Part shown: positions 16,911 through 40,479 of the stretch, one piece after another
How positions within the stretch are numbered: the stretch's first letter is position 1
How the letters are laid out: each line of letters begins with the position of its first letter
Virus record (IMG/VR): IMGVR_UViG_2839610755_000002
Strand: one strand, 5' to 3'
DNA: 64,000 nt
Origin: a virus
Taxonomy: Duplodnaviria > Heunggongvirae > Uroviricota > Caudoviricetes
Program-made: the position numbers and the translations under genes
The notes under the pieces: model-generated
Seen by the model: the letters and a program-made list of their open reading frames with translations, nothing else
What the model was told of the DNA's origin: nothing
Databases searched by the model: none

Positions 16911-17552
16911 TTAAAGATAATTATCTTTACCAGTTAATGAACCTTTAGGCACTTTCCGCGCGGCAATTTCATGAGTAGCTTGAATTATATTCACTAGGGG
17001 ACTTAGTAACGACGTATCCTGATTGGCCTCAACTTCTCCAGCCATTGCCCTGATGTAGTCGGCGCTGGCAACGTTGTTGTATTCCGTCGCAAAGCAACAT
17101 AGTAACGTCAGAACATGTTCTGTCGTTATTTCGCTCCAGTTGATGTTGAAAAATTCATCGCCTTTTTTATCGTGTTCGGAATCGAAGATGCTTTTGTGAA
17201 GGATGTATTTGCCGGATTCCTTGCGCGGTAACTTGATTGCTTTCTGGCGTTCCAGCTCCTTATAAATCTGCATTGCCTCAATTAGTACCGGCCTGCTGTT
17301 CATGAAGGGATCGCGCAACCTTACACGCTGGCCAACTCGACCAGTAATAAAGCTGTTTTCCTCTTCCACCAGCACGATAAAACCCTTTTCCTCTTTTTCT
17401 CGCAATTCGCGCAGCAGCTGGAGTTCCATATCGCGGCGGCGTTCAGGGTAGCTGGTCCGCTCAGCCATTATCAGCTCGTTATTGATCCATGCAGCAGTCA
17501 TTGACGCCGGTTTGCCGACGCTCATCGAAACAACGCATATTTTCTTATCCAT
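16911..17552 (-). CDS. mat: Mat-like protein
   Basis: Start set at MDKKICVV with GGGGG RBS (214 aa); position next to ref matches P1 cre-cra-ref-mat. Confidence 0.45.
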   Translation of the reverse strand: MDKKICVVSMSVGKPASMTAAWINNELIMAERTSYPERRRDMELQLLRELREKEEKGFIVLVEEENSFITGRVGQRVRLRDPFMNSRPVLIEAMQIYKELERQKAIKLPRKESGKYILHKSIFDSEHDKKGDEFFNINWSEITTEHVLTLLCCFATEYNNVASADYIRAMAGEVEANQDTSLLSPLVNIIQATHEIAARKVPKGSLTGKDNYL

Positions 17553-17733
17553 AGCGCCCCCTACAAAAAAGAAAAGCCACCAGCGGCGGCTTAGCAATAC
17601 AACTGAAGGTAGCGCCCGGTACTCAGACTGTGCCGTCCATGGAATATTTGAAAAGGGATCCATCCGTACCGGGCGTGTGATGATTCTGACTGAAGTCACT
17701 TGTCAGTTGTCAATCATTTATCATTAAAAATAA

Positions 17734-17750
17734 TATATTTATTAGTGCAT
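17734..17750 (-). promoter_or_regulatory. C1 operator-like site upstream of mat
   Basis: Minus strand reads ATGCACTAATAAATATA; overlaps ref stop codon. Confidence 0.5.
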
Positions 17751-18302
17751 GATGTTTGCCATCTCATAGGCGTCAGCCAGTAACTCCATCTCTGACTTGT
17801 TCAGCAGGGTGAATTCTTTCTTGCCTCCAACCACACCATCGGCATGAACAGGGACCAGCCAGGGGTATTTTGCTCTTACTTCAGCCGGTGCTGCATGCTG
17901 GTGGTGCCATCTACAAAGTGGCAATTGCTTTTTATGACAACCCGGCGCGGTACGACCGGCGATATGGTGCAGAGACACCTCATTAGATATTACTCCATGC
18001 ATATAGCAGGCAATGCAGGGGAGAGCGCCAAGAGCATTGGCGATGCGCCGTTCCTCCGCCGTTGGTGTTCTCCCCTTCAAGCCACGAGATTTTATTTTTA
18101 CCGCGCTTTTCCGCGTTTTGCTAGCTGGTGGGCGCTCTTTCTGTTTAGCGATACGGCGGTCGATAGTATCCCGCATTTTCTGATATTGAAATTCTCGCCA
18201 GACCGGATCAGCCAACTTCTCCCGTTGCCGAGCGATCGCTCGTTCTCTGGCTGCCTTCTGCCACTTGCGGCACTGTTCAATTTTTTGTTCGATTGTTTTC
18301 AT
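17742..18302 (-). CDS. ref: Ref, HNH-family endonuclease (recombination enhancement function)
   Basis: 186 aa; Cys/His HNH-type motifs (CIACYMHG...LHHIAGR...CRWHH); matches P1 Ref as I recall it. Confidence 0.9.
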   Translation of the reverse strand: MKTIEQKIEQCRKWQKAARERAIARQREKLADPVWREFQYQKMRDTIDRRIAKQKERPPASKTRKSAVKIKSRGLKGRTPTAEERRIANALGALPCIACYMHGVISNEVSLHHIAGRTAPGCHKKQLPLCRWHHQHAAPAEVRAKYPWLVPVHADGVVGGKKEFTLLNKSEMELLADAYEMANIMH

Positions 18303-18308
18303 ATGGTC

Positions 18309-18334
18309 AAAAAAAAGGCGGCCTAATGGCCGCC
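18309..18334 (-). terminator. terminator-like hairpin plus U8 immediately upstream of ref start
   Basis: Minus strand: GGCGGCC-ATTA-GGCCGCC then TTTTTTTT, 6 nt before the ref ATG. Confidence 0.5.
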
Positions 18335-18401
18335 AATGATGTCAAGGAGTGAAGTAATGGCAACGTCTTCGTAGTTGACAAAAACTGCGGCTCAATTATA
18401 T

Positions 18402-18418
18402 CAATTAATTAGAGCAAT
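18402..18418 (-). promoter_or_regulatory. C1 operator upstream of ref
   Basis: Minus strand reads ATTGCTCTAATTAATTG; ref is a known C1-controlled gene in P1. Confidence 0.65.
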
Positions 18419-18549
18419 GATAGATATTTTATTTATCGTGAGTCACATTTTTTCACTTCAGTATCTGTCTGCTATACTCCTTCTTGATTGATTGGATGCG
18501 GAATACAAACCCGCTCTTTTGTGCAGCCTGGCTCCTTGCCAGGCTTTTT

Positions 18550-18861
18550 TTATTTCATCATGGAAGCTGTTAATGCTTTGGACCTTGCTGAACTGATTGA
18601 AAGGACATTGTTAACCTTACCCAAGAGTTCGCCAAACTCAGACATCACTTTAGCAAAACCTCGCCGTGCTTCTTCCTCGGTAGCATTCATCACGAAATGT
18701 TCAGCACTACGCATACTTTTGACAGGAAACGCAACGGATATTGAGTCAATATCAGGCATTCTATCGCTCAGCTTTACAGTGACAATGACGGCTGGCGACT
18801 GAATATTAGTGCTTACAGACAGCACTACATATTTTCCGTCGATGTTGAAATCCTTTCTCAT
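18550..18861 (-). CDS. cra: Cra-like protein
   Basis: 103-aa ORF between cre and ref on the same strand; name by P1 synteny. Confidence 0.5.
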   Translation of the reverse strand: MRKDFNIDGKYVVLSVSTNIQSPAVIVTVKLSDRMPDIDSISVAFPVKSMRSAEHFVMNATEEEARRGFAKVMSEFGELLGKVNNVLSISSARSKALTASMMK

Positions 18862-40260: not shown

Positions 40261-40479
40261 TCAAAGTTCCGTATTAGCTTGTGCTTCGGTCATTTTTCCT
40301 AAGTATGAAGGAGGAAGGACTACGCAATTTGTATCCAGTCCCTCACCTATGGCAGCCTGTAAAATTCTGGCTAAGGTGAGTCTCTTGTTGCGATACCTGG
40401 TGATGACATGCCTGATACCGCCGGTCGGCGTAACAAAGGCGATCAGCCAGTAGTGATATTTCCGTCGGAATGGCCACAT
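40261..40479 (-). CDS. hypothetical 72-aa protein
   Basis: Small ORF directly upstream of the 420-aa gene. Confidence 0.4.
   Translation of the reverse strand: MWPFRRKYHYWLIAFVTPTGGIRHVITRYRNKRLTLARILQAAIGEGLDTNCVVLPPSYLGKMTEAQANTEL

What the first reader, a model, noticed from the sequence alone, without database searches (positions are those of the whole stretch)
18309..18418. Terminator-like hairpin with U8 sits between the ref operator and the ref start codon
On the minus strand the order is C1 operator (18418-18402), then a GC-rich hairpin (18334-18317) followed by eight U, then 6 nt and the ref ATG with no obvious Shine-Dalgarno. Either read-through from cre-cra is terminated immediately before ref, or ref expression is attenuated, or the hairpin is part of an unusual translation-initiation region.
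Basis: seen in the sequence. Interest (0 to 1): 0.35.

Follow-up and report, generated by a model that had tools for sequence, protein, structure and literature searches.

The report
Known leader terminator of P1 ref
A strong transcription-stop hairpin sits between the repressor-controlled promoter and the start codon of the ref nuclease gene of a P1-type phage-plasmid; it is real and conserved, but it matches the "attenuator" named in the title of a 1988 paper on phage P1 ref.

Summary
On the minus strand lie the C1 operator (18418-18402), then the hairpin GGCGGCC-ATTA-GGCCGCC (18334-18317), U8 (18316-18309), GACCAT, and the ref ATG (18302). There is no Shine-Dalgarno sequence. One gene name is wrong: the gene upstream is c8, not cra.

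The window is a P1-like phage-plasmid, 97.5% identical to P1 here. The hairpin is far beyond chance. Its stem is invariant in 57 distinct P1-like sequences, while the loop, the U-run length and the spacer vary. Two diverged Ref lineages keep the same layout of operator, short leader, hairpin with a U-run (U8 or U7), then ref: the Cronobacter phage JK004 clade and a Pantoea contig. Their stems have different sequences, with compensatory and G·U changes. D6-type ref genes have a divergent upstream gene, lack the hairpin and have a normal SD.

The best reading is an intrinsic terminator acting as a leader attenuator and as an insulator against cre-c8 read-through. This corresponds to Windle, Laufer and Hays 1988 ("attenuator-antiterminator control"), of which I could read only the title.

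I found no support for a leader peptide and no robust support for a cis antiterminator structure. The proposed P1 antiterminator remains unidentified. A second role for U8 as an SD-less ribosome-loading site is not excluded.

The parts
18402..18418 (-). C1 repressor operator (Oref of P1), ATTGCTCTAATTAATTG
   Evidence: It matches the C1 consensus at 15 of 17 positions; the window has 18 such sites against 0.22 expected. It is homologous to the feature annotated 'monovalent C1 controlled operator Oref' in P1 AF234172. Its core ATTGCTCTAAT is nearly invariant in 57 P1-like sequences.
18395..18423 (-). Promoter P2ref: -35 CTATCA at 18423-18418 and -10 TATAAT at 18400-18395, overlapped by the operator. 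Inferred transcript start near 18388.
   Evidence: Mapped from the P1 record's feature 'predicted sigma 70 promoter P2ref'. An operator-like site plus TATAAT is also kept in the JK004 clade. The transcript start is inferred, not mapped.
18335..18388 (-). ref leader (5' untranslated region upstream of the hairpin). It contains the nearly invariant block GTCAACTACGAAGAC (18379-18365) and the motif CUCCUUGAC (18351-18343).
   Evidence: This is the most variable segment between P1-like leader types (67-74% identity, against 85-98% for most neighbouring segments). The 15-nt block and the hairpin stem barely vary. The block is unique in the window.
18336..18363 (-). Second, operator-free promoter P1ref: TTGCCA, 16 nt, CATCAT, with TG before the -10. 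The -10 ends 1 nt before the hairpin.
   Evidence: Found by the promoter scan and annotated 'predicted sigma 70 promoter P1ref' in P1. TG-n-(C/A)ATCAT is conserved in P1-like sequences but absent from the JK004 clade. Inference: its transcripts would start inside the 5' arm and could not form the full hairpin.
18317..18334 (-). Terminator hairpin GGCGGCC-AUUA-GGCCGCC (7 G-C pairs, tetraloop)
   Evidence: -15.0 kcal/mol. The 5' arm has 0 variants in 57 distinct P1-like sequences, while the loop varies (ATTA, ATCA, TAAA, GAAA). Across clades 3 of 7 pairs show compensatory changes and 99.2% of cells are paired.
18309..18316 (-). U8 tract: the terminator U-run, lying where a Shine-Dalgarno would be (-14 to -7 from the AUG)
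   Evidence: The run is 7-10 T in P1-like loci, T8 in the JK004 clade and T7 in L009. It is present on this strand only; the plus strand reads A8-hairpin-AATGATG, which is not a terminator.
18303..18308 (-). Spacer GACCAT between U8 and the ATG, with no SD
   Evidence: The spacer is GCCAT (5 nt) in P1 and most relatives, and GACCAT (6 nt) here and in 17 loci. Together with U-run lengths of 7-10, this makes the frame through the hairpin unconserved, so the segment is non-coding. SD energy is -2.0 kcal/mol.
17742..18302 (-). ref (RecA-dependent HNH nuclease, 186 aa), the gene downstream of the attenuator
   Evidence: 98.4% identical to P1 Ref. The N-terminus aligns with the JK004 and D6 homologues; M1 and E5 are invariant.
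18550..18861 (-). c8 (not cra), the upstream co-directional gene. Its read-through would reach the ref leader terminator.
   Evidence: 99% identical to P1 c8. The hairpin at 18545-18525 has its T-run on the plus strand only.
18375..18391 (-). Upstream arm of an imperfect inverted repeat (GCCGCAGUUUUUGUCAA) that can pair with 18345-18329 (UUGACAUCAUUGGCGGC), including 6 nt of the terminator 5' arm. This is a candidate antiterminator pairing.
   Evidence: 17 nt, 71% complementary. A shuffle test gives p about 0.04 in this window but 0.44-0.87 in the other P1-like leader types and 0.01-0.44 in the JK004 clade. The result is inconclusive.

Best explanation
The hairpin plus U8 is a Rho-independent transcription terminator inside the ref transcription unit. 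In other words it is a leader attenuator.

Transcripts from the C1-repressed promoter P2ref start near 18388. Read-through transcripts from the constitutively needed cre-c8 genes arrive from further upstream. Both meet a 7-bp all-G/C hairpin followed by eight U, 14 nt before the ref AUG, and most of them would end there. Only the fraction that reads through yields mRNA for Ref, a nuclease toxic to the host. That fraction could arise from leakage or from the proposed, still unidentified P1 antitermination function.

The element therefore does two things. It insulates ref from upstream transcription in the lysogen, and it damps or delays expression after C1 is lost. In P1-type genomes a weak operator-free promoter (P1ref) abuts the hairpin. 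Its transcripts would start inside the 5' arm and escape termination.

On read-through mRNA the U-run occupies the SD position of an SD-less start. It probably also helps load ribosomes, as U-rich enhancers bound by protein S1 do.

Shown here: the structure, its strand specificity, its conservation and covariation, and its position relative to the conserved operator and promoter. Inferred: termination itself, the transcript start sites, the bypass by P1ref and the translational role. From the literature: C1 control of ref, and the 'attenuator-antiterminator' conclusion (title only).
For: - Canonical terminator anatomy at exact coordinates and far above chance. The leader folds better than its shuffles (z = -3.4).
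- In 57 distinct P1-like sequences the stem 5' arm never varies, while three of the four loop positions vary (4, 4 and 9 minority sequences) and the U-run and spacer change length. This holds although the leader is the most variable local segment.
- The same architecture occurs in two diverged lineages with different stems. JK004-clade phages and plasmids (Ref 65-75% identical, unrelated upstream genes) have GACGGUC-UUCG-GACCGUC plus U8. Pantoea contig L009 has GCCGCC-UCCG-GGCGGC plus U7. Both lie downstream of a C1-operator-like site.
- Three of 7 pairs show compensatory changes. One-sided changes give G·U, which is valid only on the ref-sense RNA strand. 99.2% of cells are paired, and 0 of 500 shuffles reach the covariation score.
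- ref is C1-controlled and is induced 73-fold after C1 inactivation. It peaks later and lower than ssb, dmt and kilA (PMC4713147). Because the operator lies upstream of the hairpin, C1-regulated transcripts must cross it.
[quoted passage not shown] PMC10695390 cites it as an indication that P1 encodes antiterminators.
- D6-type ref genes have a divergent upstream gene, no hairpin and a normal SD, AAGAGG. This fits an insulator role where the upstream gene is co-directional.
- ref-less P1-like plasmids keep the operator, leader and hairpin, and homology ends exactly at the U-run.
Against: - No transcript 5' or 3' ends were available, so termination and its efficiency are inferred.
- The primary papers (Windle 1988, Lu 1989, Lobocka 2004) are not in the held library. 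I rely on a title and on one secondary sentence.
- The 73-fold induction shows that many transcripts do reach ref, so the stop is not absolute.
- A cis antiterminator structure is not supported beyond chance across the variants.
- The covariation rests on only about 2-3 independent lineage-level events.
- The link between hairpin presence and a co-directional upstream gene rests on three lineages with the hairpin and one main lineage without it.
Confidence: 0.8

Rival explanations
1. The element is only the terminator of the cre-c8 operon and has no regulatory role for ref. Under this view, ref is transcribed solely from the downstream promoter P1ref, which starts inside the hairpin, and P2ref is irrelevant.
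For: The c8-proximal hairpin lacks a U-run on this strand, so cre-c8 transcripts need a terminator. P1ref is annotated in P1, and its TG-n-NATCAT is conserved in P1-like sequences. ref-less plasmids keep the hairpin.
Against: ref is C1-controlled, and the only nearby operator overlaps P2ref, about 60 bp upstream of P1ref. The JK004 clade and L009 have no P1ref-like -10, yet they keep operator plus TATAAT upstream of the hairpin, with different upstream genes. The title of the 1988 deletion study names an attenuator.
Confidence: 0.08
2. The element is mainly a translation-initiation device of the E. coli rnd type. The U8 tract is a binding site for ribosomal protein S1 that replaces the missing Shine-Dalgarno. 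The hairpin merely presents it, and little termination occurs.
For: There is no SD (-2.0 kcal/mol against a median of -4.3). U8 lies at -14 to -7. The U-run and the weak or absent SD are kept in the JK004 clade. U-rich enhancers act independently of an SD (PMC3592434) and are described for rnd and manY (PMC7769764).
Against: A 7-bp all-G/C stem with a tetraloop directly abutting U7-10 is the signature of a strong terminator, and an S1 site needs no hairpin. In L009 the U-run is about 95 nt from the aligned ATG. ref-less plasmids keep hairpin plus U6 with no start codon after it. This reading is compatible with the best explanation as a second function.
Confidence: 0.1
3. The terminated leader, about 75-80 nt from P2ref to the U-run, is itself a C1-controlled small RNA with an Hfq-type 3' end. 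On this reading ref attenuation is secondary.
For: The module of operator, promoter, leader and terminator persists in plasmids that have lost ref. A 15-nt block of the leader is nearly invariant in otherwise variable leaders. A hairpin plus U-tail is the usual sRNA 3' end (general knowledge).
Against: No Rfam family reaches threshold. The rest of the leader diverges faster than its flanks. The block is absent from the JK004 and L009 leaders. No target or expression data exist.
Confidence: 0.05
4. The element is a DNA-level palindrome, such as a protein-binding or recombination site, rather than an RNA structure.
For: Symmetric changes between clades would also preserve a DNA palindrome. Homology breakpoints in ref-less plasmids fall at the element.
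Against: One-sided changes give G·U on the ref-sense strand, which would be C·A on the other strand (L092, L031, L051). The U-run is always on one side only. The loop is always 4 nt but varies in sequence, including the UUCG and GAAA tetraloops.
Confidence: 0.02

Closest known systems
[quoted passage not shown]
   Same: Same locus and same sequence. The window's operator-to-ATG region differs from P1 by a few bases in the operator and one extra base in the spacer. The leader and the hairpin plus U8 are 100% identical.
   Different: Nothing essential differs. The window is a P1-like plasmid (100% identical over a 251-nt query spanning this region to pF1273-3 of E. coli O157:H7). What I add is comparative: covariation in two diverged Ref lineages and negative tests for a leader peptide and a cis antiterminator. 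I could not read the paper, so its details are unverified.
Classical leader attenuators (trp, his, pyrBI type)
   Same: An intrinsic terminator lies between the promoter and the first codon of the regulated gene. An upstream segment can pair with the terminator's 5' arm.
   Different: There is no conserved leader peptide. The frame through the hairpin is broken by indels, and the short ORFs seen in JK004 and L093 are absent in L091 and L164. The alternative pairing is not better than chance across the variants.
Lambda-type antitermination at early terminators (N/nut, Q/qut)
   Same: A lytic-cycle gene lies behind a terminator downstream of a repressor-controlled promoter. A phage-encoded antiterminator has been proposed for P1 (PMC10695390).
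   Different: No P1 antiterminator protein is known. I saw no boxA-like CGCTCTTA in the leader on direct reading. The conserved leader block is unique to ref within the window.
E. coli rnd 5' leader with its U-rich translational enhancer (Zhang and Deutscher 1992), and the S1-dependent U-rich enhancer of manY
   Same: A U-rich tract lies just upstream of a start codon with poor or absent SD. From memory, rnd also has a G/C hairpin followed by eight U between the promoter and the start codon.
   Different: For ref no translation data exist. The rnd anatomy is recalled from memory and was not checked here.
P1 immI regulation (c4 RNA, icd, ant)
   Same: It is another P1 case where transcription downstream of a C1-controlled promoter is cut short before a lytic gene. 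That locus is present in this window near 51976-50391.
   Different: By established knowledge that system uses an antisense RNA and Rho-dependent polarity, not an intrinsic terminator in a leader.

Membership tests
Intrinsic (Rho-independent) terminator | G/C-rich stem of about 5-14 bp with a loop of 3-8 nt | tested here: met
   7 G-C pairs, 4-nt loop, -15.0 kcal/mol
Intrinsic (Rho-independent) terminator | U-run immediately 3' of the stem, on the transcribed strand | tested here: met
   U8 directly after the stem on the minus strand only. The run is 7-10 in P1-like loci, 8 in the JK004 clade and 7 in L009.
Intrinsic (Rho-independent) terminator | Structure kept in relatives through compensatory or wobble changes | tested here: met
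   3 of 7 pairs have both-side changes, 99.2% of cells are paired, and 0 of 500 shuffles reach the score. Only about 2-3 independent events underlie this.
Intrinsic (Rho-independent) terminator | Transcript 3' ends in the U-run, or termination in vitro | not testable with these tools
   No transcript data are available. The primary paper is not held.
Leader attenuator (regulated terminator within a transcription unit) | Terminator lies between the gene's own promoter and its start codon | tested here: met
   Operator and P2ref are at 18423-18395, the hairpin at 18334-18317 and the ATG at 18302, by homology to P1 annotation. The same order holds in the JK004 clade and L009. The transcript start is inferred, not mapped.
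Leader attenuator (regulated terminator within a transcription unit) | Mutually exclusive antiterminator structure | tested here: inconclusive
   A 17-nt imperfect repeat can sequester the 5' arm. Stabilisation versus shuffled leaders gives p = 0.04 here, 0.44-0.87 in other P1-like types and 0.01-0.44 in the JK004 clade.
Leader attenuator (regulated terminator within a transcription unit) | Leader peptide whose translation sets read-through | tested here: not met
   The frame through the hairpin is not conserved, given the spacer and U-run indels. Short ATG ORFs in JK004 and L093 lack the ATG in L091 and L164.
Leader attenuator (regulated terminator within a transcription unit) | Removing the terminator raises expression, or a trans factor increases read-through | not testable with these tools
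   Implied only by the title of Windle et al. 1988 and by one sentence in PMC10695390.
Lambda-type processive antitermination site (nut/qut/put) | boxA/boxB-like or put-like element in the leader, shared among regulated operons | tested here: not met
   No boxA-like CGCTCTTA on direct reading of the leader. The conserved block GTCAACTACGAAGAC occurs once in the 64-kb window. No Rfam hit reaches threshold.
U-rich (S1-dependent) translational enhancer, rnd type | U-rich tract just 5' of a start codon that lacks an SD | tested here: met
   U8 lies at -14 to -7. Anti-SD duplex is -2.0 kcal/mol against a median of -4.3.
U-rich (S1-dependent) translational enhancer, rnd type | The tract is required for 30S binding or translation | not testable with these tools
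   Needs fusions or toeprinting.

The most novel reading that the evidence does not exclude
The ref leader terminator may be a target of the long-postulated but never identified P1 antitermination function. The same may hold for the similar hairpin plus U-run that I found in what appears to be a non-coding leader of the neighbouring gene mat. On this reading the nearly invariant leader block GTCAACTACGAAGAC, or the motif UCCYUGAC just 5' of the hairpin, would be its recognition site, and the U8 would double as an SD-less ribosome-loading site. One 26-nt element would then gate both transcription and translation of a toxic nuclease.
Probability: 0.15. Interest if true: 0.55.

Novelty: already known. 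Interest (0 to 1): 0.2.

Why it matters
Ref is a RecA-dependent nuclease that is toxic to the host, reduces lysogenisation and underlies phage-antibiotic synergy (PMC4713147). How tightly it is kept off in the lysogen and released in lytic growth is therefore biologically relevant.

The attenuator appears to be textbook-era knowledge for P1, so the finding adds little on its own. The comparative results are new to my knowledge: conservation with compensatory changes in the JK004 and Pantoea lineages, absence from D6-type genes, and retention in ref-less plasmids. They confirm that the element is under selection.

They also keep one old question in view. P1 is thought to encode an antiterminator, and none has been found (PMC10695390).

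Tried and rejected
- Primary papers. Windle 1988 (PMC211533), Lu 1989 (PMC210067), Lobocka 2004, Schaefer and Hays 1990, Laufer 1989, Gruenig 2011 and Lehnherr 2001 are not held. Only titles and secondary statements could be used.
- N-terminally extended Ref read through the hairpin. In P1 the upstream frame is open and in frame with ref. In the window it ends at a TGA, and U-run lengths of 7-10 with spacers of 5 or 6 nt break the frame in relatives. Rejected.
- Leader peptide. The short ORFs in JK004 and L093 are not conserved. Rejected.
- Cis antiterminator hairpin. A plausible pairing exists, but it is not better than shuffled leaders in most variants. Left as inconclusive.
- Conserved structure elsewhere in the leader. 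RNAalifold on 19 leaders returns only the terminator helix.
- Rfam. Nothing reaches threshold. The sub-threshold sRNA hits merely reflect terminator shapes.
- Shared leader motif elsewhere in the window, as for a nut-like site. There is none.
- DNA palindrome. Disfavoured by strand-specific G·U changes and by the one-sided U-run.
- P1 transcriptome papers (PMC8201110 and the 2025 bioRxiv Δhfq study) give no transcript-end data for ref.

Full report
**What the window is.** The region is 97.5% identical to phage P1 (AF234172 nt 1429-2679). A 251-nt query spanning the finding is 100% identical to plasmid pF1273-3 of E. coli O157:H7. So this is a P1-like phage-plasmid. On the minus strand the gene order is cre (19943-18912), c8 (18861-18550), ref (18302-17742), then mat.

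**Checking the observation.**
- operator ATTGCTCTAATTAATTG, 18418-18402
- hairpin GGCGGCC-ATTA-GGCCGCC, 18334-18317
- T8, 18316-18309
- GACCAT, 18308-18303
- ATG, 18302

The operator matches the C1 consensus at 15 of 17 positions. The window holds 18 such sites against 0.22 expected. This one is homologous to the operator annotated as Oref in P1, which overlaps promoter P2ref.

The hairpin is a textbook intrinsic terminator at -15.0 kcal/mol. Strict terminator-like sites gave 16 hits (about 9 distinct sites) in the window against 0.07 in shuffles, and this is the only one with an all-G/C stem and 8 of 8 T. On the plus strand the hairpin has no T-run after it, so it works in one direction only.

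No Shine-Dalgarno exists. The best anti-SD duplex is -2.0 kcal/mol and lies inside the hairpin arm; the median for 48 long ORFs is -4.3.

**What is already annotated and published.**
- The P1 record annotates two ref promoters. P2ref carries Oref. The predicted P1ref has its -10 (CATCAT, window 18341-18336) ending one base before the hairpin. The record shows no terminator feature in this stretch.
[quoted passage not shown] I could not read that paper or the other primary papers.
[quoted passage not shown] It cites that paper and the P1 genome paper.
- PMC4713147 shows ref is induced 73-fold after C1 inactivation, peaking at 30 min. This is later and lower than ssb, dmt and kilA. [quoted passage not shown]

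**Comparative evidence within P1-like elements (new here).** I collected about 80 loci from IMG/VR and GTDB plus plasmids, giving 57 distinct sequences.
- The 5' arm of the stem never varies.
- The loop varies (ATTA, ATCA, TAAA, GAAA) but is always 4 nt.
- The T-run is 7-10 nt and the spacer to the ATG is 5 or 6 nt.
- The rest of the leader is the most divergent local segment, at 67-74% identity between leader types against 85-98% for most flanking segments.
- The indels show that the segment is non-coding. In P1 the frame through the hairpin happens to be in frame with ref, but in the window it ends at a TGA.

**Comparative evidence in diverged Ref lineages.** Two lineages keep the same order of parts with different stems.
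- The JK004 clade comprises Cronobacter phage JK004, three IMG/VR contigs and a Salmonella plasmid. Ref is 65-75% identical and the upstream genes are unrelated. It has a C1-operator-like site plus TATAAT, a leader of about 50 nt, GACGGTC-TTCG-GACCGTC, T8, then ATG or GTG with no real SD.
- A Pantoea contig (L009) has an operator with one mismatch, then GCCGCC-TCCG-GGCGGC plus T7.

RNAalifold on 19 leaders returns only this helix. Three of 7 pairs have compensatory changes, one-sided changes give G·U, 99.2% of cells pair, and 0 of 500 shuffles reach the covariation score. Only about 2-3 independent events underlie this, so the statistic should not be over-read. The G·U changes are valid only on the ref-sense RNA, which argues against a DNA palindrome.

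**Where the element is absent or orphaned.**
- D6-type ref genes (D6 and two plasmids) are transcribed divergently from their upstream neighbour. They have no hairpin and have a normal SD, AAGAGG.
- A Buttiauxella homologue has a hairpin without a U-run, and it lies upstream of the likely promoter region.
- ref-less P1-like plasmids from E. coli and E. albertii keep the operator, promoter, leader and hairpin plus T6. Homology to the window stops exactly at the T-run, where the 3' end of a convergent icd-ant (KilAC) module abuts.

The hairpin is thus found wherever a co-directional upstream gene runs into the ref promoter. Those genes are cre-c8 in P1 and unrelated genes in JK004 and L009. It is missing where the upstream gene is divergent. 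The sample is small, so this is only suggestive.

**How it most likely works.**
- The c8-proximal hairpin (18545-18525) has its T-run on the other strand. cre-c8 transcripts probably run on to the ref leader terminator, which insulates the toxic nuclease gene in the lysogen.
- The operator lies upstream of the hairpin and ref is C1-controlled. C1-regulated transcripts must therefore cross the hairpin, so it also attenuates P2ref.
- Expression then depends on leakage or on the proposed antiterminator. In P1-type genomes it may also depend on P1ref, whose transcripts would start inside the 5' arm and could not form the hairpin (inference).
- On read-through mRNA the U8 sits at -14 to -7, where the SD would be. 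U-rich S1-dependent enhancers work without an SD (PMC3592434; PMC7769764). A dual role is therefore plausible but untested.

**Tests of regulated attenuation.**
- No leader peptide is conserved.
- An imperfect 17-nt inverted repeat (18391-18375 with 18345-18329) could sequester the terminator's 5' arm. Its stabilisation exceeds shuffled leaders only marginally here (p about 0.04) and not in the other P1-like leader types (0.44-0.87). In the JK004 clade p ranges from 0.01 to 0.44. I call this inconclusive.
- No Rfam family reaches threshold.
- The nearly invariant leader block GTCAACTACGAAGAC is unique in the window. Its role is unexplained.

**Verdict.** The element corresponds to the attenuator named in the 1988 paper on P1 ref, so novelty is low. 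The comparative support, and the negative results on a leader peptide and a cis antiterminator, are modest additions. The identity of any P1 antiterminator remains open.

Noticed in passing
window 17592-17550, minus strand (mat, the gene after ref): A second terminator-like hairpin lies upstream of a gene start. AAGCCGCC-GCT-GGTGGCTT plus TTCTTTTTT (17592-17565) is followed by a strong SD, GGGGG (17561-17557), and an ATG at 17552. P1 and PGAP annotate mat from the upstream ATG at 17663, which puts the hairpin inside the CDS. Among P1-like loci the distance between the two ATGs is 111 nt in 36 loci, 110 in 38, 109 in 5 and 112 in 2. The upstream ATG is therefore out of frame in more than half. 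The segment is probably a non-coding leader and the annotated mat start is probably about 37 codons too long. ref and mat would then both sit behind leader terminators.
   Followed up: partly
window 40559-40479, minus strand (sht operon of P7; pmgS region): Two inverted C1 operators (40559-40543 and 40510-40494) flank a hairpin, CGTGATG-TACACT-CATCACG plus T6 (40530-40505). The hairpin's T-run is part of the second operator. All this lies just upstream of the shtA ATG at 40479 and just after the stop of the co-directional upstream gene. It is another case of operator plus terminator-like hairpin before a gene.
   Followed up: partly
window 18894-18878, minus strand (between cre and c8): The window has the C1-operator-like site ATTGCTCTAATTATTTG upstream of c8. 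P1 has ATTGCTATAATTATTTG there and annotates no operator. The P7 record does list a C1 site under this region. c8 may therefore be C1-controlled in this element.
   Followed up: partly
window 18450-18552, plus strand: A promoter-like site with TG-extended -10 (18450-18478) is followed by the hairpin 18525-18545 and a T7 run on the plus strand. This would give a transcript of about 70 nt, antisense to the c8-ref spacer and ending over the c8 stop codon. Only sub-threshold Rfam sRNA hits occur here. It could also simply be the terminator for antisense transcription coming through ref.
   Followed up: no
L002 1500-1675 (NZ_CP027443) and L003 1500-1675 (NZ_CP034163): These P1-like plasmids lack ref. 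They keep Oref, P2ref, the leader and the hairpin plus T6. Two bases later comes the stop codon of a convergent KilAC antirepressor gene, preceded by icd. An orphan C1-controlled leader transcript would be antisense to read-through from that module.
   Followed up: partly
window 18379-18365 and 18351-18343, minus strand: Two short conserved pieces lie in an otherwise fast-diverging leader. GTCAACTACGAAGAC is nearly invariant in 57 P1-like sequences. UCCYUGA(C/U) lies just 5' of the hairpin in the P1-like, JK004-clade and L009 leaders. The function of both is unknown.
   Followed up: partly
window 60647-57606, minus strand (dmt homologue, 1013 aa): The DNA methyltransferase ORF carries an intein-like insertion. 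Pfam finds Hint_2 (residues 77-126) and LAGLIDADG_3 (298-361) between parts of the C-5 methylase domain. The sequence reads ...GGTP|CFTAGH...VVHN|CQAFS..., so the insertion splits the catalytic PCQ motif.
   Followed up: partly
L004 1620-1725 (NZ_CP080128) and similar plasmids (H78-H82): In several plasmids homology to the ref leader stops after about 40 nt of leader, before the hairpin. A Tn3-family transposase gene follows, so a transposon insertion or deletion has removed the attenuator and ref.
   Followed up: no
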